Source: a virus
Taxonomy: Duplodnaviria; Caudoviricetes
Strand: one strand, 5' to 3'
Length of the DNA: 57,467 bases
Virus record (IMG/VR): IMGVR_UViG_3300033233_000045
Location: 1 to 57,467 of that record
Below are positions 1-57,467 of the stretch, one piece after another. The position numbers and the translations under genes are program-made. Under the pieces are notes generated by a model, which worked only from the letters and a program-made list of their open reading frames with translations, was not told the origin of the DNA and ran no database searches. Numbering within the stretch: the first letter of the stretch is position 1; each line of letters opens with the position of its first letter.

Positions 1-127
1 CGGTCTAATCGAGACGGGAGGAACAAATCGCATTTTCCGTGGACTGATGGATTCTTGGACTCCGGTCTAATCGAGACGGGAGGAACAAATCGCATTTTCC
101 GTGGACTGATGGATTCTTGGACTCCGG
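1..127 (+). repeat. Two exact 62-bp tandem units plus 3 bp; also the terminal overlap of a circular contig
   Basis: 1-62 = 63-124; 1-127 is identical to 57341-57467; a degenerate third unit lies at about 155-198. Confidence 0.95.
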
Positions 128-337
128 CCTTCTCTCTTCGCGACGATGATATGTGTCTAATCGAGACGAGAGAGATAAATCGGTCTTTCCGTGGACTCGT
201 GCCTGTACGACATTCGTTAGTGTACTTACGAGTCCAAAGAGTCCAAGCGAGGAACCGAGCGAATAGGCACGGAGTCCAAGAATCCACGAGTCCAACGAGT
301 CCACGGGATTCGTCTTTTATCGTTCTCGTCTCGATTA
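1..337. promoter_or_regulatory. Putative replication origin (iteron-like TGGACT/AGTCCA arrays)
   Basis: Non-coding and lower GC; TGGACT motifs on the left, five GAGTCCA (230-303) on the right, inverted TAATCGAGACGAG at 158-170/325-337; adjacent to the primase-helicase 3' end. Confidence 0.6.
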
Positions 338-376
338 TACTGAACCCCATTTGTTCCTAATCGCCTCCTACACGAT

Positions 377-2428
377 CTAGGAAAAAGGCGGTTTGGAGTA
401 AAACCCGCTGCCTAGATCGAGCAAATCACCCTGATTTACAAGGCGGCTCACGAGTTGATAAACGCTGCTTCGAGACCGCCCCAACTCCTGTGCGAGTTGC
501 GGGACCTTGACCGGCCCGTTGACGCGGGCGATGACGGCGTAGACCGCGGTCCGGTCCCGGTTCCGCTCGTAATCCTCCGCCTTCCCCTCCAGCGTCCAGA
601 TGGCGGCCTGGTGGTTCCACTCCAGGTGCATGTCCGCCGTCTCCACGTCGCGCCCCGTGATCCGCAGGGTGGCCGACGCCTCGTCGCGCTTCCCGTCGAG
701 GAGCAGGAGCGTGTCCGCCGCCGCGGCCAATCCCGTGGAGGCGTTCAGGCTGTCTACCCAATCCTCGCGGGCCATTTTGCTCTGGTGATGCAGGACAAGG
801 ATCGTGATCCCGAGGAGATCGGCCAGCGTCTTGACCAACGCGGCGGCCTCATAGTCCTGATCGTAGGCTGAGCCGCCCGGGGTCTGTGGGGCGCGAATCT
901 TGGCGTAGGTATCGAGGATGATGAGGCCGACGTCGGGGTGGAGGAGCTGCCATTCGCGGAGTATCCGGTCGCCTTGACCGCGGGAGCCGAACCGGGGCCA
1001 TTGGGTGCGGTAGTGGAAAGTGGCCGGGGCTTCTGAATCGCCGAGGAGCACGCGCAGTCGGCTCTGTAGCCGGCGTTCCGTGTCCTCCATCGACAAATAA
1101 AGAACACCCCGCTGCTCCACTGGAATCGATCCCAACACGCGACCCCCTTTCGCCACCGCCAGCGCGATGGCGAGCGCCAGCCACGACTTCCGCGTCTTCG
1201 TGCGCCCGAAGAGGCACCCGAACCCTTCCGGGAGAATTTCCGGCACGATCCAACGGACGTCGGGCAGCGTCCGGGCCAGCAACTCCTCCGCCGTCGCCGT
1301 TTCGGGCAGCACGATCTCCGGTCCCAGCCCGTTGCGCGAGATCGCGTCGATCCGCGCGGCGAGTCGCTCCCGCTCTTCCCGTTCCCGGACGGCGATCCAC
1401 ACCTGCCGCGCCGGCGGCTCGCTCTCCACGGAGGAAGAAGTGCTCTCTTCAGTGGCCGGCTCCGGCTCCGGTTCCAGCCGCGCGGGCGGCGGCGCGTCCG
1501 GGTCGCCCGGCATCGGCGGACGTTCGAGGCCCGACCCGGGCCGATACCCCTCGGGCGTGGCCGCGATGGCCTTGCCGATGGTGAGTGACCGATAGTCCTC
1601 CCGACTCTCCCACTTCGCCCGGACCAGGCCGGACTGCCGAAACAGCCGGTCCATCCGCGGGGCGTCGTTGTCCGTCCAAAACGCCAGGTGATTGCACAGC
1701 GCCTGATCGGCCGCGCTGGCGTCCCCGCCGTGGGCGCTCGTGTCGCCCGCCCACAGGTTCTGAATCTGCGCGCCGTGGCGGCTCCCGAACATCCGGTCGA
1801 GCAATTCGCGGTCGTCCAACGCGAGCGGGATATTGCCCGGCGCGGTCGCTGCCGACGCCGGGGTTGGCGCGGGCATGCTCCGGGCCAACTCATCAACCCG
1901 CGTCTGTCTCGCCGCGACGTGGCCCGGCGTCCCCGGCCACCGCCGTCCCGTGATCGTAAAATACCTGAGCCGGTCAAAAACCTCGACCTTCGCCTCGGCA
2001 TCGGCGTCTCCCTGGATGCGGCGTCGATGCCCCGCGTCCGTGGGCCACGTCGCCTCGACGATCAGGTGCAGCCCGCGCCCCGACGGGCTCAGTTCCGTGT
2101 ACGAGGCGAGCACGTCCACGATGTCCGCCGCCCACGGCTTGATCGTCCCGGTCTCGTCAATGCAGGCGTCGAGATCGATGCCGAGGAACGGATCGTCGGC
2201 CGCGAACACGTAGCCGATCCCGTCCATCTGGGGATGCGCGGCGACATAGGCCAGCGCCTCCTCGAACGTCACCCACGTGCTCGGCCGATCATGCCGCGCA
2301 TACCCGCCCGTCCGGCAATTATACGGCGGTTTGGTCGGCTTCGACTCCCCGGGTCGGACCTCCAGTTTCCAGCACACCCAGTGTGGAGAGAGGACCAACT
2401 CCCTCGGAATCATCGCCGCGTCGATCAT
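377..2428 (-). CDS. Primase-polymerase/helicase (NrS-1-like AEP + helical bundle + AAA_25/RepA-like helicase + C-terminal wHTH)
   Basis: WVCWK, GIDLD, SPSGRGLH and RYFTITG prim-pol motifs; SAADQALCNHLAFWT..MDRLFRQSGL bundle; Walker A-like GRTKTRKS, Walker B LIILDT, LHH motif. Confidence 0.9.
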   Translation of the reverse strand: MIDAAMIPRELVLSPHWVCWKLEVRPGESKPTKPPYNCRTGGYARHDRPSTWVTFEEALAYVAAHPQMDGIGYVFAADDPFLGIDLDACIDETGTIKPWAADIVDVLASYTELSPSGRGLHLIVEATWPTDAGHRRRIQGDADAEAKVEVFDRLRYFTITGRRWPGTPGHVAARQTRVDELARSMPAPTPASAATAPGNIPLALDDRELLDRMFGSRHGAQIQNLWAGDTSAHGGDASAADQALCNHLAFWTDNDAPRMDRLFRQSGLVRAKWESREDYRSLTIGKAIAATPEGYRPGSGLERPPMPGDPDAPPPARLEPEPEPATEESTSSSVESEPPARQVWIAVREREERERLAARIDAISRNGLGPEIVLPETATAEELLARTLPDVRWIVPEILPEGFGCLFGRTKTRKSWLALAIALAVAKGGRVLGSIPVEQRGVLYLSMEDTERRLQSRLRVLLGDSEAPATFHYRTQWPRFGSRGQGDRILREWQLLHPDVGLIILDTYAKIRAPQTPGGSAYDQDYEAAALVKTLADLLGITILVLHHQSKMAREDWVDSLNASTGLAAAADTLLLLDGKRDEASATLRITGRDVETADMHLEWNHQAAIWTLEGKAEDYERNRDRTAVYAVIARVNGPVKVPQLAQELGRSRSSVYQLVSRLVNQGDLLDLGSGFYSKPPFS

Positions 2429-5821: not shown

Positions 5822-5908
5822 CCTCATTTATAGCAGTTGACCAAGGATGTAGGGAATCTGGCAGGAATCTTTTCCGGCTCTCTCGCGAACCGGGAGGCGG
5901 GGGCGACA

Positions 5909-7045
5909 ATGGCGAAGCGAAAACCGGTCGGGTTGGCATGCTCATGCGAACGGGCGCAACTGAACGCGGCGTTGCGGCGCGTGTCGCGGGCGGTCTCCAC
6001 GTCGAGCCCGCTGCCGATCCTGCACAACGTGTTGATCGAGGCGGACGGGGAGACGATGCGCCTCGCGGCCAATGATCTCGAACTGGCGATGGAGTGCCGC
6101 CTGTCGGCGACGGTGACGACGCCGGGAGCGGCCTGCCTGCCGGGGCGGCTGCTTGGGGAGATCGTCGCGGGGATCGCGGGCGATCACGTGACGTTCGCGC
6201 TCGGGGAGCAGAATGGGGTCGAGGTCGTCGGCGGCAGTTCGCGCTACCGTGTGATGGGACTGCCGTCGGAAGAGTTTCCTGCCGCGCCGGAGGTGGGGGG
6301 CGCGGTCTCGTTCACGCTCCCCGCGGACGCGCTTCATCGCGCGCTTAAGATCGTCCGAACGGCCGTGAGCGACGACGAGACGCGACCGACGATCACCGCC
6401 GTCAAATTCGAGGTGGGGCCGGGAAAACTGCGGCTCGTGGCGACGGACACGCACCGGCTGGCGATGTGCGATCTACTCTGCGAGGGAGTCGACGAGGAGA
6501 GCGCGGCGCTGGTCCCGGACCGCGTGGCGGCGGAACTGTTCCGGCTGTCGGCCGATCAGGGACAGAGGGAGATTCAGGCGCGCTGGGACCAGAATCAGGC
6601 GCTGTTTCGGATTGGCGAGACGACGCTCGTCTCCCGCCTCATCGCGGGGCAGTTCCCGCGCTACGAGCGGATCATCCCCAAAGAGTTGCCGACGACCTGG
6701 ATTCTGTCCCTCGCGGGATTCGGCGGGGCGGTGGACCGGGTGATGGTGGTGGCGCGCGAAAACAGCAACCGCGTCCACCTCGCCGTGGAGGAGGGCCGCC
6801 TGGTCCTCCGGGCCGTGTCGGGGGTGATCGGGGAGGCGCGCGAGGAGATCGAGGTCGAGGTCGCGGGCAACGCGATAGGCGGGGAGATCATCTTAAACGG
6901 CCGTTTCCTGCGTGAGACGTTGGCCGCGCTCGACGGCGAACGGGCGCGGCTGGATCTGAGCGACCCGGGCGCGGCGACGACGCTGCGGGTGGAGGGCCGG
7001 GACGACGCACGGGTGGTGATCATGCCGATGAGCGCGTCGGCGTGA
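5909..7045 (+). CDS. dnaN: DNA polymerase III beta sliding clamp
   Basis: PILHNVLI, ANDLEL, EEFP, DETRP, VATDTHRL, SRLIAGQFPRYERIIP and VIMPM motifs; GGAGG RBS. Confidence 0.95.
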   Translation: MAKRKPVGLACSCERAQLNAALRRVSRAVSTSSPLPILHNVLIEADGETMRLAANDLELAMECRLSATVTTPGAACLPGRLLGEIVAGIAGDHVTFALGEQNGVEVVGGSSRYRVMGLPSEEFPAAPEVGGAVSFTLPADALHRALKIVRTAVSDDETRPTITAVKFEVGPGKLRLVATDTHRLAMCDLLCEGVDEESAALVPDRVAAELFRLSADQGQREIQARWDQNQALFRIGETTLVSRLIAGQFPRYERIIPKELPTTWILSLAGFGGAVDRVMVVARENSNRVHLAVEEGRLVLRAVSGVIGEAREEIEVEVAGNAIGGEIILNGRFLRETLAALDGERARLDLSDPGAATTLRVEGRDDARVVIMPMSASA

Positions 7046-40372: not shown

Positions 40373-42025
40373 ATGGCCGGCGGCGTTTATCGCATCGGGC
40401 CGCCGCCCCAGCAGCGGCGACACGGAAACACCCCGCTCTTCGGGTCGACGCAATCGCTGCTTGCCCCCGCGGTAACGGCTCTCTTCGTCATCACCGCGCC
40501 GACACTCACGAGCGGCGCGGTCTCCGTGGCCGCACCCGCGGTGACGGCCCGGTTCGTCGTCACCGCGCCGACGCTTACTTCCGGGGCGGCCGTGGTCGCG
40601 GGGACCGCGACCACGGCGCGGTTTGCCGTCACCGCACCCACGCTCTCCACTGCCGCGTCGCTCGGGGTCCCCGCGACCACGGCGCGCTTCACCGTCACGG
40701 CCCCGACGCTTACTTCCGGGGCGGTCTCCGTGGCCGCGCCCGCCACAACGGCGCGGTTCGTCGTCACGGCCCCATCGCTTACGAGCGGCGCGGTTTCCAT
40801 CGCGATCCCGGCCACGACCGCCCGGTTCGCGGTCACGGCTCCCACGCTCACAAGTGGCGCGGTCTCCGTGGCCGCGCCCGCGACCACGGCGCGGTTTGCC
40901 GTCACGGCCCCGACGCCCACGGCAGGCGCACTTTCCGTGACGGCTCCGGCAATCACGGCTCGGTTCATCGCCACCGCCCCGGCGTGCCTGTGCAACGTGC
41001 AACTCCCGGCCGTGACGGCGCGATTCGTCGTGACCGCGCCCACGCGTTCGACGACGCTCCTGCTCGCCGCGCCCGCGACGACGGCGCGGTTTGCCGTCAC
41101 GGCCCCGACGCTCACGGTCGGGACAGCTTCCGTGGCGGTCCCGGCCACGACGGGGCGGTTCGCCACATTTGAACCCATTCTGCGGCAATCGCTTTCCGCG
41201 CCCGCGGTGACGGCCCGGTTCGTCGTCACGGCCCCGACGCTCACGAGCGGCGCGGTTTCCGTGACGGCTCCGGCCACGACCGCCCGGTTCGCGGCCACGG
41301 CGCCCGCGCGGACGGCGACGGTCTCCCTGACGGCCCCGGCGGCGACTACCGCCCGGTTCGCGGCGACCGCGCCGGCCGTAACCCAGACGACGCCAAACAT
41401 CGCGGCCCCGGCGGTGACCGCCCGGTTCCTGGTGACCGCGCCGACGCTCACGACTACCGTTTCGGTCGCGGTTCCCGCGGCGACGGCGCGGTTCGTCGTC
41501 GGGACGCACACAATTCCCCAGGGGCAACTCTTCTTCGCGCCTCAGGCGATGGCGCGGTTTGTGGTCACGGCGCCCGCGACGACGGCAGGGGCGGCGTCGG
41601 CCACGTTGTCCGCCGCGGCCGCGCGGTTTGTCGTGACGCCGCCCTCCGTGGTGCGGCATCTGTCACTGCCGGCGGTCATCGCCCGGTTCACGGTCACGCC
41701 GCCCACGCCCGCGGCGGCGACATCCGTGGCAGGCGGCGTCACGACGGCGCGGTTCACGGTCACGGCGCCCACGATCGCGGCGGGAGCGATCGGCCGGAAC
41801 TTCCCGGCGGTCACGGCCCGCCTGGTCACGGCAGGGGTAGGCCAATCCGTCATCCGTAATTTCTCGCTCCCGCGGTTGACCGCGCGGATACGCGTGATTG
41901 CGCCGCCGATTCTGTTCGCGGACGCGTTCAATTACAAGGGGACGTTGGATTGCACGGCGCTGGACTATGGTGGGGCATTCGTCGTCGTGGAGAATCTCCT
42001 GGGAGTGTTAATCTCGGATGGTTAG
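40373..42025 (+). CDS. Repetitive fibre-shaft protein
   Basis: About 22 copies of a TARFxVTAP-based repeat. Confidence 0.7.
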   Translation: MAGGVYRIGPPPQQRRHGNTPLFGSTQSLLAPAVTALFVITAPTLTSGAVSVAAPAVTARFVVTAPTLTSGAAVVAGTATTARFAVTAPTLSTAASLGVPATTARFTVTAPTLTSGAVSVAAPATTARFVVTAPSLTSGAVSIAIPATTARFAVTAPTLTSGAVSVAAPATTARFAVTAPTPTAGALSVTAPAITARFIATAPACLCNVQLPAVTARFVVTAPTRSTTLLLAAPATTARFAVTAPTLTVGTASVAVPATTGRFATFEPILRQSLSAPAVTARFVVTAPTLTSGAVSVTAPATTARFAATAPARTATVSLTAPAATTARFAATAPAVTQTTPNIAAPAVTARFLVTAPTLTTTVSVAVPAATARFVVGTHTIPQGQLFFAPQAMARFVVTAPATTAGAASATLSAAAARFVVTPPSVVRHLSLPAVIARFTVTPPTPAAATSVAGGVTTARFTVTAPTIAAGAIGRNFPAVTARLVTAGVGQSVIRNFSLPRLTARIRVIAPPILFADAFNYKGTLDCTALDYGGAFVVVENLLGVLISDG

Positions 42026-45020: not shown

Positions 45021-47756
45021 ATGTCCAGAACCCTTTTCGTATCTCCTTCCGGCAGCGACACCGCCGCGGGTTCCGAAACGGATCCGTGGCGGTCCATCGG
45101 CGCCGCCTGCGCCCGCGTACAACCGGGCGACACGCTTATTTTGCGCGCGGGGACTTATCCCGAAACGATCAACCCCAAGACGGGCGGGACGGGACCGGAT
45201 CAGCGGATCACATTCCGTGCGGCGGCAGGCGAGACCGTGATTCTCGACGGGGGAACGGGTCGGATGGTCGGCTGGGACGCCGAGGGCGGCGGCGTGTTTC
45301 GGCGTGTGTTCGTGGGACCGCTCACGGGCCTGTTCCAGGACGGGCCTGGGCGGGCGTGCGCACTCTGGAACATGGACTACAACCATTACGAGAGCAACCC
45401 GAACCTCACCCTGCACGACTACGATCCCACCCATGACGCCGTGCTGGATCATGGCGTGACGTGGAGGAAGCACGACCGGTTCAGCCAGTTCCAACTGAAG
45501 GGCGGCGTGCTGCGCGTGCAGACCGCCGACGGCCGAAGCCCGGACGAGCATGACGTGCGCGGGTCGGCAAAACGATACGCCATCGACCTCTCGGGCAAAC
45601 CATGGGTGTCCGTCGAGGGGATCACGTTCCGGTATTGGGAGACGTTCGGCTACGTCCAGAACAGCCCGTTCTTTCGTCTCGTGGACTGCCGGATGGAATA
45701 CGCGGGCGCCACGGGCGTGTGGCTGGTGGCGAGCGACAACTCGGAGATCATCGGCAACCGGATCATCGTCGCGGGCAGCCAGATCGGCCACTATGACGAC
45801 GGCTTCCACATGGCGTCCTGCGCCGGGTGCCGGATCGAGGGAAATGAGATCGCCTGGTGCGGACACGGCGGATTCTTTACGAAGCGCAGTCGGACGGCCA
45901 CGATCAAGGGCAACTACATTCATCATGCCGGCGGCACGGGCCTGAACCTGAACCTGGGCGCGACTGGGATGACCGTCACCGAAAACGTGATCGCCGTCTG
46001 CGGGGAGCGGGCGCAGACTTCCGTCCACAAATTCGGGCATGCCGGGATGCAACTGGTCGGGCCGACGAACACCCTGCGCCGCAATCTGATCTACCGCTGC
46101 GGCCAGGGCGTCGGGATGGGCTGCAATGATTCCGTGATCTGCAACGGAAACACGCTCGACCACAACACGGTCTCGGACTGCGAGGACATCGGCCTGGTGC
46201 TCGAAGGGTATCAGGCGTCGTTCTCCGGTCGGCTGAACGACAACCGGTTCACGGGGAATCTGATCGCGCGGTGCGGCACGCACGGGATCCGGCTCGACCT
46301 CCCCGGCGGAAAACAGAGCGGCTGGTGGGGCAACACGTTCCGCGACACGCTCGTCTCGGAAGCGAACGTCCATCTGTTCGACGATGGCGTCTACCCGCCA
46401 TTGGAGGCGCAGTGGCGGTGGCCGGTCGTGTTCGCGGGGACGTCGGACGCGCGACCGAGTTTCCGAAACAGTTCCCTCGGCGACTATCGACTGGCGGCCG
46501 GATCGCCCGGGTCGGGATTGGGAGCCGAGCTGGCCGCGCCCACCGACGATGGCATTCCACCTCCACCGCCGCCACCCCCACCGCCGCCTCCCCCACCGCC
46601 GCCGGTAGAGACCGATCCGCATGTCACGACAGTCATTCCGGCCGCGGGCATGGTGGGCGCTGAGATTGTCATACGCGGGACGAGGTTTGGCGGCGACTCG
46701 GGTGGGCTGGTGATCGGGAGACTGCGGCAGATTCTGCTTGAGTGGAAACCCGAGCAGGTCCGGGCGAGACTGAAACCCGAAACGCCCGTCGGAGCCACGA
46801 CGGTCTACGTCCGACGGGCCGCCGACGGAAAGCGGTCCAACGATGTGCCGTTCACTGTCACCGAGAACGCGCCGCCTCCCCCCCCGGCAGACGCACCCAT
46901 TCTCATTGACATAACACGCGTTACTGCCGACAGTTTCGATCAGGTGACGCACGGCGGTCCCTGGGTTCCCGGCTTCGCCGTGGACGCGCTGCCGCTCACC
47001 GCCTGGGTCTCCGATCCGGCGCTGCCGATGCCGCACTGGATCGAGATCCCGCTGCCGGGAACATTCCGCGTGGACCAACTGCGACTATCCCCGCATCGGT
47101 ATGACGTCCGAATTTATCAGATCGAGATCGAGAGCGCGCGGGGAACGGGACCATGGCGAAACGTCGGACTGGAAAGCGTCGCCACCATGAACGAGCCCTG
47201 GTCGCAGTTTTACTTCCCCGTCGTGGAGGCGGATCGGGTGCGGGTGCGGTTCCTCGGCAACAACGATCCGCGCCGCCCCCGGACGGCGGGTCTGCGGACG
47301 GTCGAGGTCTGGGGTGTGAAACTCTCCGACGAGACACCGCCGCCGCCGCCACCCCCACCGCCGCCTCCCCCACCGGACGAACTGGCGCAGCTACGTCGGG
47401 AGGTGTTTTATCTCACCAACACCGAACGCGCGAAGGCCGCGATCCCGGCGCTCGCGACGAACGATTTGCTCGACCGCGCTGCTCAAGGACACGCGGAGGA
47501 TATGGCGGCGCACGGCTATTTCAGTCACACGGGGGCGGACGGTTCCTCGCCGGCGGACCGGCTCCAGCGCGTCGGATATTTGGCGACAATTTGGGGCGAG
47601 AACATCGCCCGCGGCTATCCGACGCCCGCCTCGGTCGTCACTGCCTGGATGGAGAGTCCCGGCCACCGGGCGAATATCTTGAACGGGTCGTTCACGGATC
47701 TGGGGGTGGGGATCGCGGCCGGGCACTGGGTGCAGGATTTCGGACGCGCGCGGTGA
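45021..47756 (+). CDS. Beta-helix + IPT/TIG + discoidin-like + CAP multidomain protein
   Basis: FVSPSGSD..PGDT..GTYPE; poly-Pro linkers; IRGTRFG; HWIEI..EVWG; HAEDM..GENIA..SPGHRANIL. Confidence 0.85.
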   Translation: MSRTLFVSPSGSDTAAGSETDPWRSIGAACARVQPGDTLILRAGTYPETINPKTGGTGPDQRITFRAAAGETVILDGGTGRMVGWDAEGGGVFRRVFVGPLTGLFQDGPGRACALWNMDYNHYESNPNLTLHDYDPTHDAVLDHGVTWRKHDRFSQFQLKGGVLRVQTADGRSPDEHDVRGSAKRYAIDLSGKPWVSVEGITFRYWETFGYVQNSPFFRLVDCRMEYAGATGVWLVASDNSEIIGNRIIVAGSQIGHYDDGFHMASCAGCRIEGNEIAWCGHGGFFTKRSRTATIKGNYIHHAGGTGLNLNLGATGMTVTENVIAVCGERAQTSVHKFGHAGMQLVGPTNTLRRNLIYRCGQGVGMGCNDSVICNGNTLDHNTVSDCEDIGLVLEGYQASFSGRLNDNRFTGNLIARCGTHGIRLDLPGGKQSGWWGNTFRDTLVSEANVHLFDDGVYPPLEAQWRWPVVFAGTSDARPSFRNSSLGDYRLAAGSPGSGLGAELAAPTDDGIPPPPPPPPPPPPPPPPVETDPHVTTVIPAAGMVGAEIVIRGTRFGGDSGGLVIGRLRQILLEWKPEQVRARLKPETPVGATTVYVRRAADGKRSNDVPFTVTENAPPPPPADAPILIDITRVTADSFDQVTHGGPWVPGFAVDALPLTAWVSDPALPMPHWIEIPLPGTFRVDQLRLSPHRYDVRIYQIEIESARGTGPWRNVGLESVATMNEPWSQFYFPVVEADRVRVRFLGNNDPRRPRTAGLRTVEVWGVKLSDETPPPPPPPPPPPPPDELAQLRREVFYLTNTERAKAAIPALATNDLLDRAAQGHAEDMAAHGYFSHTGADGSSPADRLQRVGYLATIWGENIARGYPTPASVVTAWMESPGHRANILNGSFTDLGVGIAAGHWVQDFGRAR

Positions 47757-47789
47757 ACTTGTTCCCGACCGACGCCAACTCCTTAACCT

Positions 47790-47820
47790 GGGCGCGGCGT
47801 TCCTGTCGCGTCCCCTTTTT
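47790..47820 (+). terminator. Terminator-like hairpin (copy 1)
   Basis: gggcgcggc/gtcgcgtcc followed by T5. Confidence 0.55.
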
Positions 47821-47833
47821 CGCGGGACGACGA

Positions 47834-49021
47834 ATGAGGGCAATCAGACCGAAATTGAAACTGATCTCCGTGACGCCATCTTCCGTGGAGGGCGGAGAGT
47901 CCGCCACCGGGACGGTGCAACTAGACCGCGCGGCGGGAACAGGCGGCGCGGCCGTGACACTGGGGAGCGAAGATCCCGGCGTGGCGACGGTTCCCGCGAC
48001 GGCAAAAGTTCCGGCAGGAAGCGTCTCCGTGAATTTTTCCGTCACGACGATTGCCGTCCCCTCTCCCGTGAATGTGCGACTGGCCGCGTGCCGCGACGGA
48101 TCAACCCGCATCACGGCGCTGTCCGTGCAGTCTCCCACCCCTCCCCCTCCTCCTCCACCGCCGCCGCCGCCGCCGCCCACGGGAGGGACACTCTCCGCCG
48201 TGCCGCTTGTCCTTGCCAATCGCCGCGTTTCCGCCGACAGCGCGGACACGATCACCATCGGTGGACCATGGGGCCCGGGAAACGTCATCGACGGGCTCCC
48301 TCAAACGGAGTGGGTGAGCGGCGTCGGCGCTCCGATGCCCCACTGGTTGGCAATCGGGATCCCCGAACTCGTCCCGATCTGCAAGGTTCGACTGTCTCCC
48401 GGCTGTTATGAATCACGCGGCTATCGGTTGAAACTGGAGGTGCAGACGGCGAATCGCTCGTGGTCGTCTGTCGCGGAGACTTCGACGGTTGCCGGTCAGG
48501 CATGGTGGGAGGCGTCATTTCCGACCATCCCGGCATACGCGATCAGGATAACGTTCCTCTCCTCCACGGACGACGCCCGTCCGAACGTCGCCCGCCTACG
48601 CAGCGTGGAGATGTGGACCGTCTCGGACGCCGCGCCGCCGGATGAACTGCGTGTCGTGCAGGCGAAACTGCTCCAGTTGACCAACGCGGAACGCACCCGA
48701 TTTGGGTTGCCGTTGCTCGTCGCGAACGAGCGATTGAACGGGGCGGCGCAGGCCCACGCGGAGGACATGCACGCGAAACAGGATCTCAACCACACAGGGT
48801 ACGACGGCTCCTCTCCCGCCGACAGAATCCGTCACACGGGATATGCGGCAGTCGCGTGGGGAGAAAACATCGCCGAGGAAATATTCACGGCCGAATCGGT
48901 TATAACCGCGTGGATCGCCAATCCCGGCTATCACGCGAACATTCGGAACAGCACCTTTCTCGAACTGGGCGTCGGAATGAAATCCGGCTACTGGGTGCAG
49001 GATTTCGGACGGGCGAGATAG
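47834..49021 (+). CDS. Ig-like + discoidin-like + CAP protein
   Basis: PSSVEGG..GTVQLD; poly-Pro; HWLAI; HAEDM..GENIA..WVQDFG. Confidence 0.8.
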   Translation: MRAIRPKLKLISVTPSSVEGGESATGTVQLDRAAGTGGAAVTLGSEDPGVATVPATAKVPAGSVSVNFSVTTIAVPSPVNVRLAACRDGSTRITALSVQSPTPPPPPPPPPPPPPTGGTLSAVPLVLANRRVSADSADTITIGGPWGPGNVIDGLPQTEWVSGVGAPMPHWLAIGIPELVPICKVRLSPGCYESRGYRLKLEVQTANRSWSSVAETSTVAGQAWWEASFPTIPAYAIRITFLSSTDDARPNVARLRSVEMWTVSDAAPPDELRVVQAKLLQLTNAERTRFGLPLLVANERLNGAAQAHAEDMHAKQDLNHTGYDGSSPADRIRHTGYAAVAWGENIAEEIFTAESVITAWIANPGYHANIRNSTFLELGVGMKSGYWVQDFGRAR

Positions 49022-51800: not shown

Positions 51801-52094
51801 TTATACCTTGCGATGGCGCGAGACGATAAACGGTCCCGTCCCGTCTTCCGCCTCCTGCAACTCATAATCGCCGAAGACGGAGGGAGCGTGGGCCTGTAGC
51901 AGCCGAAGAATATCCACGGCGAGCCGCCGGAACTCCCGGTCGGGGCCGAGCGCTCCGCGCATCTCCAGGAGATGACGCCAGGCCCGGAAATTGGCGGTGA
52001 CGACGATCCCGGTTTCGGCCGCGTTCACCAGCACGGACCGCGCGGCCTGTCGCGCGCGCTTACGCCGCTCCACGGCGTCGCGCTTTCGGTTCAT
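51801..52094 (-). pseudogene. thyX: C-terminal fragment of the thymidylate synthase ThyX
   Basis: RQAARSVL.NA.ET..VVTANFRAWRH..EMR..EFRRLA; N-terminal RHR...S.R motif absent. Confidence 0.75.
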
Positions 52095-52097
52095 GAT

Positions 52098-52349
52098 CTA
52101 CTCGATCAATCTCCCCTGCCCGCTGGGCGTAGGATGAAACGAGCTCTTCACGGTCGTCGTATGTTTGTGGACGAAATCCACCTTGACGCCTCCGAGATCC
52201 GTGTCCTCCGTGACCGTGAAGGTGATCCCGACCATTGCCGCCCTGGCATCGCCATTCTCCACGGACAGGACGGCGCGGGTGAGGCTTTGATCGAGGCGGT
52301 CAAGCAGTTCCCTGCTCAGGTTCCGATACATCCCCTGCAACAACGTCAT
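52098..52349 (-). CDS. Hypothetical protein
   Basis: AGGGGA RBS; in the operon. Confidence 0.55.
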   Translation of the reverse strand: MTLLQGMYRNLSRELLDRLDQSLTRAVLSVENGDARAAMVGITFTVTEDTDLGGVKVDFVHKHTTTVKSSFHPTPSGQGRLIE

Positions 52350-52642: not shown

Positions 52643-53119
52643 TCACGTCTGTTCCGGATCTCGCGCTCGTCGCGAGGGCCGCTTCTCCGGGATCACGAAG
52701 TCGCCGCCGCCATTATGCAACCATTTTGCGGGTAATCCCACCTTCAAGTTCCCGATCAGGAAATCCCCGTCGGCGTTGGTGGTCAGCGCCACAATGCGGG
52801 CGGCAGTCTCGCGGTCGAGATGGGCGCCGCTGACGTGGGACCAGTCAATTCCGCTCCTCAGCAGCGTTTGAGCGACGTGGTACGCCGTGACGAGTGGCCT
52901 GTCTCTCACGAAAAGCCATTCGCCGCTTTCGTGGGAGACAGACCAGCCGGTCTGCGGATCCCCCGGCGGCGTCGGATGGCGATGGATGACGAGCGGACCG
53001 AAGGCGACGCCGGGCGCCTCGACAAAACCCCACGGCATGTGGACGCGATGGGTGACGCGACGGCCGCGGGGCTCATCCCGGCGTTCGTAGCAGCCCGCGA
53101 GAAAGGTTCCGGCCGGCAT
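52643..53119 (-). CDS. Hypothetical protein
   Basis: GGAGGAG RBS; WSVSHESG motif. Confidence 0.6.
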   Translation of the reverse strand: MPAGTFLAGCYERRDEPRGRRVTHRVHMPWGFVEAPGVAFGPLVIHRHPTPPGDPQTGWSVSHESGEWLFVRDRPLVTAYHVAQTLLRSGIDWSHVSGAHLDRETAARIVALTTNADGDFLIGNLKVGLPAKWLHNGGGDFVIPEKRPSRRARDPEQT

Positions 53120-53128
53120 GACTCCTCC

Positions 53129-53416
53129 CTAGCCGCGCATCGGATCGTCGGCGTCGCGGATGCCGACGATCCGATGCAGCCCGATTTCCAAGCCACCGGG
53201 AATCGAGAGCGAATACAGATTGTCATACCACTCGGGGGAGTCTTTGGCGGAACGAAGGTCACGACGCATCAGGATACCGTGATCACCATCCTCCGTCCTC
53301 ATGGTCAGTTCCGGGTGGTGGGTCGTGAAATGTGGAATGAAGCCCGCGGTGTCCGTCTCGACAGGCGGATCACAGAGCAGGCAGGTGTAGGTATGGCCGG
53401 GTCGAATGTTTCTCAT
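53129..53416 (-). CDS. Small C2H2-like zinc-finger protein
   Basis: YTCLLC...HFTTHH. Confidence 0.5.
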   Translation of the reverse strand: MRNIRPGHTYTCLLCDPPVETDTAGFIPHFTTHHPELTMRTEDGDHGILMRRDLRSAKDSPEWYDNLYSLSIPGGLEIGLHRIVGIRDADDPMRG

Positions 53417-53426
53417 CGAGAATCTA

Positions 53427-53835
53427 TGGCGCGGAAACCGCGCCGCCGAGAGCGGCAGCGGAGGGGCGCCATTCCTTTCAGTCTGTGCGTAAAAGCGCAG
53501 GGATGGGCGCCCCTCCGCGGTGAACGTGTCCTTGTTCCGCCCACGGCTCAATGAAGGCACTCGCCGGTGACGGGAGAAACCGTTTACCCCTCGGGGTGAG
53601 CCGCGAGGGACGGGCCTGCATAAGACCCCGGAACATGCCGGGATTGGCATGGTGAGCCGCGAGGCTCCGTGCGAGCGAAAGGCATATCGCACCCCGTTCC
53701 CGGTGGGCCGCCCCGAGCTTCACGTCTCGGCCCCTTTGCCAGGAGTGTCACCCGGCCTATCGCGACCCCACCCTGCCCTCCCCGGAGAGACCGACTCCCG
53801 CGGAGCCGCAAGCCACGCCACTTCAGTGGCCGTGG
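53427..53835 (+). ncRNA. Candidate large structured non-coding RNA
   Basis: About 400-nt gap with no credible ORF; many nested stems, GNRA loops, G-U pairs on the plus strand and a possible pseudoknot. Confidence 0.6.
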
Positions 53836-55016
53836 TCAGGTGACTTGTCGGCCGTGACCTCGTTGCCCCACGCCGCCCAACCGGCGCGCGGGGAGCGACA
53901 GAACAGTTCGGCGCGGCGGGTGCCCGGATACATCTCCTCGATCAACTCCCGGACGCGGTCCGGCTTCTCGCTGTGGCGGCCCTTGTCCGCGTGGACGACC
54001 GAACTGGGCCGGGCGTCCGGCGGCGGGATCCCCGGCGCGCCCCGGGTCGCGATCAAGAGAAACTCGTGGTCGATTCGGGCGTAGAACCCCATCCCTATCC
54101 CGTTCTTGACCCACACCATGCTCGTCTTATACTCGAAGCCCCAGGCGGCGAGGATCCGGAACGCGGCCGGGAGCAGGGGACTGGTCGCCCACAGGAAGAG
54201 GACGCAATCCACGGCGGCGATGTCGTGGACCGGCAGCGCGCCGATCCCGTCCTCCGAGAGCGTGGGATAATGCTCCTCCACGTCGCGTGACGTGCCGCGC
54301 CGGAAGTTCGTCTGCCAGGGCGGGTCGGCGAGGAGCACGTCGAAGCGGCCGTCGGGCAGCGGCGGCGTCTCCGTGGGCGCGGGCTGCGCGAGTTTGCGCG
54401 CCTGCTTGATGACCGGATCTGCCAACTCCAACTCGGGCGCGTCGAGAGGAGAGCGGTCCCGTGTCTCCTCGGCCGGCGTGAAGGGCGGCGGCGGGTCTGG
54501 GAACGCCTGAAGCGCCGCCTGGACCTGAGCGGCCTCGCGCCCGTTGCGGGCGAGCACGGCGCGGGGCGCGCGTTCGCGGGGGCGTTCTTTGCCGTCGGCG
54601 CCGATGGAACTGTGTATGTTACACAGTTCTCCACTCGCCACGAGATCGGCGCGCAAAGAGCTTACCGTTTTGTTGCTCACGCCCAGCATTCCGGCGATGA
54701 TCCGATCCGACTTCTCGGGCGTCTCCTTCAACTGGGCGGCGATGATCGCCCGCTTCTGCTCGGGCGCCAGATGCCGCCGCAGCAGGTTCACCTTGCGGAC
54801 GTGGCGGCGCTTCTCTTCCTCGGTGAGGCCCGCGCGGACGATGCGCGGGTAGTCGATGCCCAACTCGCGGGCAATCCGGACGCGATGATGCCCGTCGAGG
54901 ATGCAGCCGTGCTCGTCCTCCTCGACGGGGACGAGCACGCCGCGGGCGGCGATGTCGTCGCGCAGCGCCGCGTATTCGATGTCGGAGAGGGGCGAGAACA
55001 GTTGATAGTCGCTCAT
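53823..55016 (-). CDS. ParB-N + HTH + MT-A70 adenine methyltransferase
   Basis: ILDGHHR; SDRIIAGMLGVS; ADPPW, LFLW, HSEKP, ELFCR..GW..WGNE. Confidence 0.9.
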   Translation of the reverse strand: MSDYQLFSPLSDIEYAALRDDIAARGVLVPVEEDEHGCILDGHHRVRIARELGIDYPRIVRAGLTEEEKRRHVRKVNLLRRHLAPEQKRAIIAAQLKETPEKSDRIIAGMLGVSNKTVSSLRADLVASGELCNIHSSIGADGKERPRERAPRAVLARNGREAAQVQAALQAFPDPPPPFTPAEETRDRSPLDAPELELADPVIKQARKLAQPAPTETPPLPDGRFDVLLADPPWQTNFRRGTSRDVEEHYPTLSEDGIGALPVHDIAAVDCVLFLWATSPLLPAAFRILAAWGFEYKTSMVWVKNGIGMGFYARIDHEFLLIATRGAPGIPPPDARPSSVVHADKGRHSEKPDRVRELIEEMYPGTRRAELFCRSPRAGWAAWGNEVTADKSPDHGH

Positions 55017-57340: not shown

Positions 57341-57467
57341 CGGTCTAATCGAGACGGGAGGAACAAATCGCATTTTCCGTGGACTGATGGATTCTTGGAC
57401 TCCGGTCTAATCGAGACGGGAGGAACAAATCGCATTTTCCGTGGACTGATGGATTCTTGGACTCCGG
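57341..57467 (+). repeat. Terminal copy of 1-127 (circular overlap)
   Basis: Exact match to 1-127. Confidence 0.95.

What the first reader, a model, noticed from the sequence alone, without database searches (positions are those of the whole stretch)
53427..53835. Candidate new ~410-nt structured ncRNA, antisense to the early operon
Seen: the largest gene-free gap apart from the origin, almost fully paired. Stems include ggcgcgg/ccgcgcc (53428-44), gccg/cggc, a perfect 13-bp stem 53458-70/53506-18 with inner ctgtgc/gcgcag, ggtga..gtgtcctt/aaggcac..tcgcc, and ggtgacgg/ccgtttacc. A multibranch domain holds catgccg/tggcatg, gagcc-GCGA-ggctc and gtgcga..GAAA..tcgcac. Loop CGGCTCA (53544-50) can pseudoknot with TGAGCCG (53597-603), and GGTGAGCCGCGAGG occurs twice. 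GNRA loops and G-U pairs indicate the plus strand, opposite to the flanking genes. I cannot match it to tRNA, tmRNA, RNase P or intron consensus. Inference: a large phage RNA in the spirit of GOLLD/ROOL, possibly catalytic or a scaffold, next to an MT-A70 methylase.
Basis: partly seen in the sequence, partly recalled or inferred. Interest (0 to 1): 0.82.

Follow-up and report, generated by a model that had tools for sequence, protein, structure and literature searches.

The report
Orphan structured non-coding insert in phage operon
A roughly 300-base stretch with no gene, wedged into a tightly packed phage operon, folds unusually well and may encode a new RNA, but it has no relatives or expression data, so this stays a candidate.

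Summary
The gap 53417-53822 lies between a ParB/MT-A70 methylase gene and a 95-aa ORF, both on the minus strand.

Only 53426-53722 (297 nt) folds better than chance:
- z is -8.3 on the plus strand and -4.4 on the minus strand against shuffles.
- It folds better than all 768 composition-corrected windows of this genome.

The last ~110 nt do not fold better than shuffles.

Nothing else explains the region. There is no codon-phase signal, no Pfam or PHROGs hit, and no homologue for the ORFs in the gap. It matches no Rfam family, tRNA or tmRNA.

I found no homologue anywhere I searched. These were 124 methylase-relative loci, 39 whole viral records, the phage and plasmid collections, and 1,704 sampled bacterial genomes. 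Covariation therefore could not be tested, and no RNA run holds the stretch.

The plus strand is favoured by folding energy, but the strand asymmetry is ordinary for this genome. One 98%-identical metagenome variant breaks three predicted pairs without compensation.

Verdict: a real, single-copy, structured non-coding insert. A new antisense RNA is plausible (about 0.3) but unproven. The likeness to GOLLD or ROOL is not supported.

The parts
53417..53822 (.). The 406-nt gap between the methylase stop (53823-25) and the ATG of the 95-aa ORF (53416-14). It is single-copy in the genome.
   Evidence: ORF list. No codon-phase GC signal, unlike the methylase gene. No second copy in the window.
53426..53722 (+). 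Structured core of 297 nt. This is the only part that folds better than chance. The plus strand is favoured by energy.
   Evidence: MFE is -169.1 (+) and -155.0 (-). z is -8.3 and -4.4 against shuffles. It is below all 768 genome windows.
53428..53456 (+). Two short G+C-rich hairpins: a 7-bp stem with an AAA loop, and a 4-bp stem with an AGAG loop.
   Evidence: -20.6 kcal/mol, z -3.55 (+); -19.8, z -3.24 (-). Short look-alikes of this piece turn up in unrelated bacterial genomes.
53458..53518 (+). Long hairpin: a perfect 13-bp outer stem plus inner stems. It is the largest single contributor to the excess stability.
   Evidence: -46.9 kcal/mol, z -8.28 (+); -40.4, z -6.14 (-). Inverted repeat I2.
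53519..53588 (+). Two weaker hairpins (53519-65 and 53566-88). Three natural substitutions in the variant from run X3 break their pairs.
   Evidence: z -2.17 and -2.19 (+); -0.27 and -0.72 (-); the variant loses 3.2 kcal/mol, about what random changes cost.
53590..53717 (+). Multibranch domain. It has an outer stem (53590-98/53709-17) and a middle stem (53601-04/53703-06). A four-way junction is closed by 53607-14/53693-700, with arms 53615-52, 53654-67 (GCGA loop) and 53669-92.
   Evidence: -74.1 kcal/mol, z -4.06 (+); -66.1, z -2.25 (-). The MFE equals the centroid, and its frequency is 0.18 against a median of 0.016 in shuffles.
53595..53608 (+). First copy of the exact 14-nt repeat GGTGAGCCGCGAGG.
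53651..53664 (+). Second copy of the 14-nt repeat, 56 nt after the first. It forms part of junction arm 2.
53748..53825 (+). C-rich, G-poor tract on the plus strand (39 C, 17 G in 78 nt). It does not fold better than shuffles. It resembles a Rho loading site if the plus strand is transcribed.
   Evidence: top 0.4% of plus-strand windows, but one of 23 such tracts of either polarity in the genome. Fold.
53766..53783 (-). G-quadruplex motif GGGGAGGGCAGGGTGGGG on the operon's sense strand.
   Evidence: the only motif with loops of 2 nt or less among 8 G4-type motifs in the genome.
53813..53835 (.). Hairpin overlapping the methylase stop codon, with no run of T after it on either strand.
   Evidence: Folds. 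Not called a terminator.
53823..55016 (-). Upstream flanking gene: a ParB-like N-terminal domain fused to an MT-A70 DNA methyltransferase. The start at 55016 overlaps the preceding gene's stop.
   Evidence: Pfam MT-A70 E 2e-24. PHROGs methyltransferase and ParB-like families. PADLOC MTase_II.
53129..53416 (-). Downstream flanking gene: a 95-aa ORF with no relatives and a C-x2-C...H-x3-H motif. It has no Shine-Dalgarno sequence. A gene caller extended it to 140 aa from TTG 53551.
   Evidence: the only database hit is the window's own 140-aa call. No family hit. The motif was read by eye.

Best explanation
The gap holds a single-copy, non-coding, highly structured element. It was inserted into an otherwise gapless minus-strand early and replication operon.

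My preferred reading, only narrowly ahead of the rivals, is as follows. The plus strand is transcribed into an RNA of 300-400 nt that runs antisense to the operon. Its core (53426-53722) folds into five hairpins and a four-way-junction domain. The C-rich, poorly folded tail (53748-53825) lets Rho end the transcript, since no intrinsic terminator is present. The RNA is perfectly complementary to the stretch of operon mRNA between the methylase and the downstream ORFs that have no relatives. Making it, or simply transcribing against the operon, would therefore lower expression of those downstream genes. This is how the small antisense RNAs of lambdoid phages work (recalled, not from a call).

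Shown here: the structure, its excess over chance, the lack of coding signal and the lack of a known family. Inferred: transcription, strand, ends and function.
For: - Core fold: z -8.3 on the plus strand. Ensemble diversity is lower than in all 40 shuffles.
- Each of the five sub-domains in 53426-53722 is more stable on the plus strand than on the minus.
- 212 of 297 nt are paired on the plus strand, against 192 +/- 7 in shuffles. The minus strand equals its shuffles.
- The core is below all 768 composition-corrected genome windows.
- The junction domain is well defined: MFE frequency is 0.18 against a median of 0.016.
- No codon phase. None of 8 ORFs over the gap hits Pfam or PHROGs at E<=1.
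- The 81-aa ORF and the N-terminal extension frame have no homologue among 5.8 billion clusters.
- No Rfam, tRNA or tmRNA match.
- The other gene junctions of the operon that I examined are overlapping or no more than 10 nt apart.
- In the two closest cultured phages the methylase gene runs straight into the next gene. The gap is therefore an insert.
- The plus-strand tail has a C/G ratio of 2.29.
- In the 98%-identical X3 contig, all 4 listed changes fall in 53515-53568 and none in 53569-53718.
Against: - No homologue was found, so no covariation could be tested.
- No promoter-like or terminator-like site lies in the gap on either strand.
- The plus-minus energy difference is matched or exceeded by 39 of 384 genome windows.
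- Three X3 substitutions break plus-strand pairs in 53519-53590 without compensation. They cost 3.2 kcal/mol, about what random changes cost (2.1 +/- 3.1). They slightly stabilise the minus-strand fold.
- Minus-strand transcription through the gap is to be expected from the operon layout. Plus-strand transcription needs a promoter that I cannot see.
- About half of the core's excess stability comes from one long G+C-rich hairpin, which fits a DNA palindrome or repeat element just as well.
Confidence: 0.3

Rival explanations
1. The structure acts on the minus strand, as part of the operon's own mRNA. It would be an intercistronic element made of three parts: a hairpin at the methylase stop, a G-quadruplex, and the junction domain with hairpins that end 11 nt before an AUG lacking a Shine-Dalgarno sequence. 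It would pause or end transcription, be cut by an RNase, or gate translation of the downstream ORFs.
For: - Both flanking genes are on the minus strand in a tight operon, so this strand is almost certainly transcribed.
- The minus-strand core is still far better than shuffles (z -4.4) and below all genome windows (z -3.4).
- The genome's only short-loop G4 motif lies here, on the minus strand.
- The X3 substitutions do not weaken the minus-strand fold.
- The next ORF has no ribosome-binding site and sits directly behind a hairpin.
Against: - Every sub-domain is weaker on the minus strand. Two of them are no better than shuffles (z -0.27 and -0.72).
- The number of paired bases equals that of shuffles.
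- Ensemble diversity is ordinary: 12 of 40 shuffles are as low.
- No terminator-like site and no riboswitch or leader family in Rfam.
Confidence: 0.2
2. The gap has no function for the phage. It would be a recently acquired or decaying insert, such as a palindromic repeat element of the REP/BIME or MITE kind picked up from the unknown host. Its hairpins would be a property of the element, not of a phage RNA.
For: - The gap is absent from the two closest cultured phages.
- It is found only in near-identical copies.
- Much of the excess stability lies in plain G+C-rich hairpins.
- A hairpin with the same 11-bp arms occurs in 67 unrelated bacterial contigs.
- In one search, 11 of the 19 listed short matches fall on hairpins 1-2 (query positions 4-57).
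- The natural substitutions behave as neutral.
Against: - Single copy in the phage.
- No extended match in 1,704 sampled genomes of five groups, nor in the 67 hairpin loci.
- Few other contigs of the source metagenome lie on the gap at 80% likeness (depth table).
- No terminal inverted repeats or target duplication were seen.
- The junction domain has a well-defined fold, which is unusual for junk.
Confidence: 0.3
3. The inverted and direct repeats work as DNA: binding sites for a phage regulator or the ParB-like domain, or a single-strand structure used in replication or packaging.
For: - An 18-nt inverted repeat (89% complementary) and an exact 14-nt direct repeat at 56-nt spacing.
- ParB-like and HTH/GcrA-like genes lie directly upstream.
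- A primase-polymerase/helicase and a beta-clamp are encoded nearby on the circular map.
Against: - G+C is 0.68, like the rest of the genome. There is no A+T-rich stretch and there are no iterons.
- The A+T-richer gap at 1-376 is the better origin candidate.
- The 14-mer has no further copy beyond chance elsewhere in the genome.
- Most of the stems are imperfect, in the way RNA helices are (G-U pairs, bulges).
Confidence: 0.12
4. Part of the gap is a protein-coding gene that was missed. Candidates are the 81-aa minus-strand ORF 53478-53723, which has an AAGGGG-N7-GTG start, or a longer form of the downstream gene (140 to 187 aa).
For: - Open frames exist.
- A gene caller extended the downstream gene to 140 aa, from 53551.
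- In the 81-aa frame, 2 of the 4 X3 changes are synonymous and 2 are conservative (worked by hand).
Against: - No codon-phase G+C pattern: second-position G+C is 0.55-0.70 here, against 0.42-0.53 in the real genes.
- No Pfam or PHROGs hit at E<=1.
- No homologue for the 81-aa ORF. Only the window's own call appears for the extension.
- All 4 X3 changes are non-synonymous in the long-ORF frame. By contrast, in a methylase fragment 8 of 10 listed changes sit at third codon positions.
- Long open frames arise by chance at 68% G+C.
Confidence: 0.08

Closest known systems
GOLLD and ROOL, large ornate RNAs of phages and prophages
   Same: Both are phage-encoded, non-coding, multi-helix RNAs. According to the passages of PMC12286853 read, the function of both is unknown.
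   Different: - No match to either Rfam model, even at E<=10.
- The structured part here is about 300 nt, whereas many GOLLD RNAs exceed 800 nt.
- Both classes often lie near tRNA islands, and this window has no tRNA.
- The complex pseudoknots of ROOL and its conservation across many genomes have no counterpart here.

The paper's supplements were not seen.
Cis-antisense RNAs of temperate phages (lambda OOP, P22 sar, P1 c4; recalled, not from a call)
   Same: It would be transcribed against an early operon. It would be fully complementary to the target mRNA and would lower expression of the genes it overlaps.
   Different: - Those RNAs are about 70-80 nt with one or two hairpins, a recognisable promoter and an intrinsic terminator.
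- This element is four to five times longer, with a four-way junction.
- No promoter-like or terminator-like site lies in the gap on either strand.
Intercistronic processing or stabilising structures and REP/BIME-type palindromic clusters in operons (recalled)
   Same: A run of G+C-rich hairpins sits between two genes of one operon and is transcribed with them.
   Different: - REP/BIME elements occur in many copies per genome. This one is single-copy, and the host is unknown.
- The 128-nt multibranch domain is not typical of those elements.
Type II tRNA (long variable arm)
   Same: The core is a four-way junction. Arm 2 with its flank shares 19 identical bases with a stretch of viral contig L128. 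By eye I read that stretch as the variable arm of a tRNA.
   Different: - No tRNA is called by ARAGORN at normal or 90% thresholds.
- There is no Rfam tRNA hit, no T-loop and no 7-nt anticodon loop.
- The 19-mer match is one of 7 chance hits.

Membership tests
GOLLD / ROOL | Match to the family's covariance model | tested here: not met
   cmscan of the whole window at gathering scores gave 0 matches. At E<=10 on 53200-54000 there was no match in the gap.
GOLLD / ROOL | Size and setting: many GOLLD RNAs exceed 800 nt, and both classes often lie near tRNA islands in phages and prophages (PMC12286853, passages) | tested here: not met
   The structured part is 297 nt and the gap 406 nt. ARAGORN finds 0 tRNAs in the 57 kb.
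Any Rfam 15 family (introns, RNase P, 6S, riboswitches, small ribozymes, tmRNA, sRNAs) | Score at or near the gathering threshold | tested here: not met
   The only E<=10 hit lies at 53930-54000, outside the gap (13.4 bits against a threshold of 70).
tRNA / tmRNA | Cloverleaf with canonical loops, or a tag peptide | tested here: not met
   ARAGORN finds none and none at a 90% threshold. Only implausible intron-containing calls appear at 80%.
Conserved structured RNA in general | Compensatory base changes across diverged homologues | not testable with these tools
   No homologue was found. The one variant, X3 at 98% identity, shows 3 pair-breaking changes and no compensation.
Phage cis-antisense RNA | Own promoter and terminator on the strand opposite to the operon | tested here: inconclusive
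   The consensus scan finds neither in the gap. The host's promoter type is unknown. A C-rich tract like a Rho loading site is present.
Phage cis-antisense RNA | A transcript exists | not testable with these tools
   No RNA run holds the stretch.
REP/BIME or MITE-type repeat element | Many copies in the host or phage genome | tested here: inconclusive
   Single copy in the phage. Only 21-50-nt hairpin matches appear in 1,704 sampled genomes. The host is unknown: a beta-clamp panel gave 23-36% identity to all 29 genomes.
Intrinsic terminator | G+C-rich hairpin followed by a run of U | tested here: not met
   No terminator-like site in 53417-53835 on either strand.
Protein-coding gene | Codon-phase composition and homologues | tested here: not met

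The most novel reading that the evidence does not exclude
The 297-nt core is the first known member of a new class of phage-encoded structured RNAs built around a four-way junction. It would be transcribed antisense to the early operon and would act in trans, as a scaffold, decoy or ribozyme, rather than merely as an antisense regulator. Its twice-repeated 14-nt motif and the complementary hairpin loop would form alternative or tertiary contacts.
Probability: 0.1. Interest if true: 0.7.

Novelty: new member of a known kind. Interest (0 to 1): 0.3.

Why it matters
If the element is a real RNA, it adds a family that no database holds to the short list of larger structured RNAs carried by phages. 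It would sit in an unusual place: inside an early operon, next to a DNA methylase.

As it stands it is a single-sequence prediction in an uncultured sediment phage. Its practical value is as a defined target (53426-53722) for a covariance-model search of larger metagenome sets and for strand-specific RNA data.

Tried and rejected
**Searches for homologues (all negative)**
- blastn against phages and plasmids.
- blastn and nhmmer against 44 viral loci, then all 124 viral and metagenome loci that encode methylase relatives.
- A covariance model R1 of the 135-nt junction domain, built from the single sequence entered twice.
  - I ran it over the window plus 99 of the 133 loci then held. L102-L133 were not searched.
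  - The best foreign hit was 19.1 bits, E 0.13.
  - It was also run over 39 whole viral records.
- Exact patterns in viral contigs.
  - Only the 17-mer hit. Its 7 hits showed no further likeness.
- Relatives of the 158-aa, 95-aa and portal proteins in viral contigs: none.
- DNA search of sampled genomes:
  - 5 named genomes.
  - 401 genomes of the class of a Brevundimonas genome.
  - 251 of the phylum of a Gemmatimonadales genome.
  - 251 of the phylum of a Chthoniobacteraceae genome.
  - 401 of the phylum of a Kitasatospora genome.
  - 400 scored of the class of a Burkholderiales genome.
  - Only matches of 21-50 nt appeared.

**A wasted scan**
The one genome-contig scan went on the 11-bp-arm hairpin pattern. 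It returned 67 unrelated G+C-rich hairpins.

**Expression**
No RNA holder was listed by the look-up of sequencing runs. All three runs that were laid are DNA contigs.

**Host**
A beta-clamp panel of 29 genomes gave no clear host.

**Ideas rejected**
- tRNA pseudogene cluster.
- CRISPR-like or type III antitoxin repeats: only one 14-nt pair is present.
- attP with a tRNA fragment: I saw no T-arm.
- A defence or toxin partner among the neighbouring genes.

Full report
**What the window is**

The window is a whole IMG/VR virus record of 57,467 bases with direct terminal repeats. The repeat is 127 nt and exact. G+C is about 66%. It encodes:
- a terminase and a portal protein;
- a primase-polymerase/helicase and a beta-clamp;
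- a block of minus-strand genes from 57329 down to 50770.

The finding lies in that block. Upstream is a ParB-like/MT-A70 methyltransferase at 53823-55016 (Pfam MT-A70 E 2e-24; PHROGs). Downstream is a 95-aa ORF at 53129-53416. Its only database match is the window's own gene call, which was extended to 140 aa.

The other junctions of the block that I examined overlap or are no more than 10 nt apart, going by the ORF coordinates. The closest cultured relatives of the methylase are in Mesorhizobium phage vB_MseS-P1 (44.7%) and Agrobacterium phage Rivra (37.1%). In both, the next gene follows the methylase gene at once. The 406-nt gap is therefore an insert into a compact operon.

**Check of the observation**

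| Stretch | Plus strand | Minus strand |
|---|---|---|
| 53417-53835, MFE (kcal/mol) | -214.3 | -215.2 |
| 53417-53835, z against 100 shuffles | -5.39 | -2.80 |
| 53426-57, z | -3.55 | -3.24 |
| 53456-520, z | -8.28 | -6.14 |
| 53519-66, z | -2.17 | -0.27 |
| 53565-90, z | -2.19 | -0.72 |
| 53588-722, z | -4.06 | -2.25 |
| 53720-53835, z | -0.73 | -1.09 |
| Core 53426-53722, z | -8.3 | -4.4 |

The signal sits in 53426-53722. The last stretch, 53720-53835, is no better than shuffles.

I then compared the region with the genome itself, after regressing energy on composition:
- The 406-nt gap ranks 5th (+) and 7th (-) of 564 windows. The windows at 1-406 fold more strongly.
- The 297-nt core is below all 768 windows, with z -4.2 (+) and -3.4 (-). 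My window was placed to fit the structure, while the scan used fixed steps.

'Almost fully paired' means 71% paired, against 65% for shuffles.

**Is it coding?**

- The methylase gene has third-position G+C of 0.9. The gap has no such codon phase.
- Eight ORFs over the gap give no Pfam or PHROGs hit at E<=1.
- The 81-aa minus-strand ORF has no homologue. The frame that extends the downstream gene finds only the window's own call.
- A contig of run X3 covers 53469-53718 with 5 differences, 4 of them listed. All 4 listed changes are non-synonymous in the long-ORF frame. In the 81-aa frame they are 2 synonymous and 2 conservative (worked by hand).
- By contrast, in an X3 fragment over the methylase gene, 8 of 10 listed differences sit at third codon positions. 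That fragment may come from another organism.

Coding is unlikely, at about 0.08.

**Is it a known RNA?**

No. Rfam 15 gives nothing at gathering scores for the whole window. At E<=10 it gives nothing in the gap. ARAGORN finds no tRNA or tmRNA.

**Relatives**

None was found. The searches are listed under Tried and rejected. Near-identical DNA is present in three metagenome runs from three studies. One may be the source of the record, one is identical where it is covered, and one is 98% identical over 250 nt. No covariation test is possible.

The X3 variant is the only natural variation seen:
- Three substitutions (53553, 53556, 53568) break plus-strand pairs in the two weak hairpins, with no compensation.
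- They cost 3.2 kcal/mol, about what three random changes cost (2.1 +/- 3.1). They slightly favour the minus-strand fold.
- A fourth (53515) lies in the 13-bp stem, but its partner is not covered by the contig.
- None of the listed changes lies in 53569-53718, which holds the junction domain. With four events this is only a hint.

**Which strand?**

For the plus strand:
- Every sub-domain is more stable on it.
- More bases are paired than in shuffles.
- Ensemble diversity is lower than in all 40 shuffles, whereas 12 of 40 shuffles are as low for the minus strand.
- There are 10 G-U pairs against 7.
- There is one GNRA loop.
- A C-rich tract with C/G 2.29 lies 3' of the core.

Against the plus strand:
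- The energy asymmetry is matched or exceeded by 39 of 384 genome windows.
- No promoter-like site is seen.
- The operon layout makes minus-strand transcription the expected one.
- The genome's only short-loop G-quadruplex motif lies on the minus strand at 53766-83.

The strand is not settled.

**Explanations and odds**

| Explanation | Odds |
|---|---|
| Plus-strand antisense structured RNA | 0.30 |
| Selfish or decaying palindromic insert | 0.30 |
| Minus-strand intercistronic RNA element | 0.20 |
| DNA-level site | 0.12 |
| Missed coding gene | 0.08 |

I commit to the first because the thermodynamic signals lean to the plus strand and the junction domain has a well-defined fold. The margin is thin.

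**Comparison with known systems**

It is not a member of GOLLD or ROOL. There is no model match, it is far shorter, and there are no tRNAs nearby (passages of PMC12286853). It would work most like the cis-antisense RNAs of temperate phages (recalled), but it is several times larger and lacks their visible promoter and terminator.

**Novelty and score**

The sequence belongs to no described family. However, the kind of thing it is, a structured non-coding element between phage genes, is known. A single-sequence fold without covariation or a transcript is weak evidence. Interest is 0.3. The boldest reading still open, a new class of trans-acting structured phage RNA, gets 0.1.

Noticed in passing
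window 51801-52349 (-): The only ThyX (PF02511) match covers profile positions 112-191 of 191. It runs through one in-frame TAG at 52098-52100, which joins two ORFs of 83 and 97 aa. The N-terminal half of ThyX was not found in the record. This is either a truncated remnant or a read-through gene.
   Followed up: partly
window 53766-53783 (-): GGGGAGGGCAGGGTGGGG is the only G-quadruplex motif with loops of 2 nt or less in the genome, out of 8 motifs of the G3+N1-7 type. It lies about 40 nt after the methylase stop, on the operon's sense strand.
   Followed up: partly
window 1-406 and 57341-57467: The gap at the record's start has G+C of 0.50, against 0.66 overall. It has the strongest composition-corrected folding of all 406-nt windows (z -4.5 and -4.0). 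The record ends in an exact 127-nt direct terminal repeat. This is the more likely origin or regulatory region.
   Followed up: no
window 53129-53416 (-): The 95-aa ORF has no relatives among 5.8 billion protein clusters. It carries a C-x2-C-x13-H-x3-H pattern (read by eye) and has no Shine-Dalgarno sequence. The neighbouring 158-aa ORF (52643-53119) has a strong GGGAGGAG site and hit no protein family or viral-contig relative. Both have lower third-position G+C than the methylase gene.
   Followed up: partly
window 377-2428 (-) and 5837-7045 (+): The phage encodes a primase-polymerase of the NrS-1 type fused to an AAA_25 helicase-like domain. It also encodes its own DNA polymerase III beta-clamp, which is 23-36% identical to the clamps of 29 diverse bacteria, so it gives no host signal.
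   Followed up: partly
window 40398-41800: A stretch with G+C of 0.73-0.76 shows several windows among the best-folding in the genome, on both strands (residual z -2.0 to -2.9). It lies under overlapping long ORFs on both strands.
   Followed up: no
window 45021-47756 and 47153-49021 (+): Two large ORFs in different frames overlap by about 600 nt. Both carry CAP (cysteine-rich secretory protein family) and F5/8 type C domains, and the first also has a beta-helix. They are probably tail fibre or host-recognition proteins, and their starts need checking.
   Followed up: no
L128 3381-3399 (-): A viral contig shares 19 identical bases with junction arm 2 of the gap. By eye, the match sits in the long variable arm of what looks like a type II tRNA (T-arm and CCA follow). 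I take it to be a chance match.
   Followed up: partly
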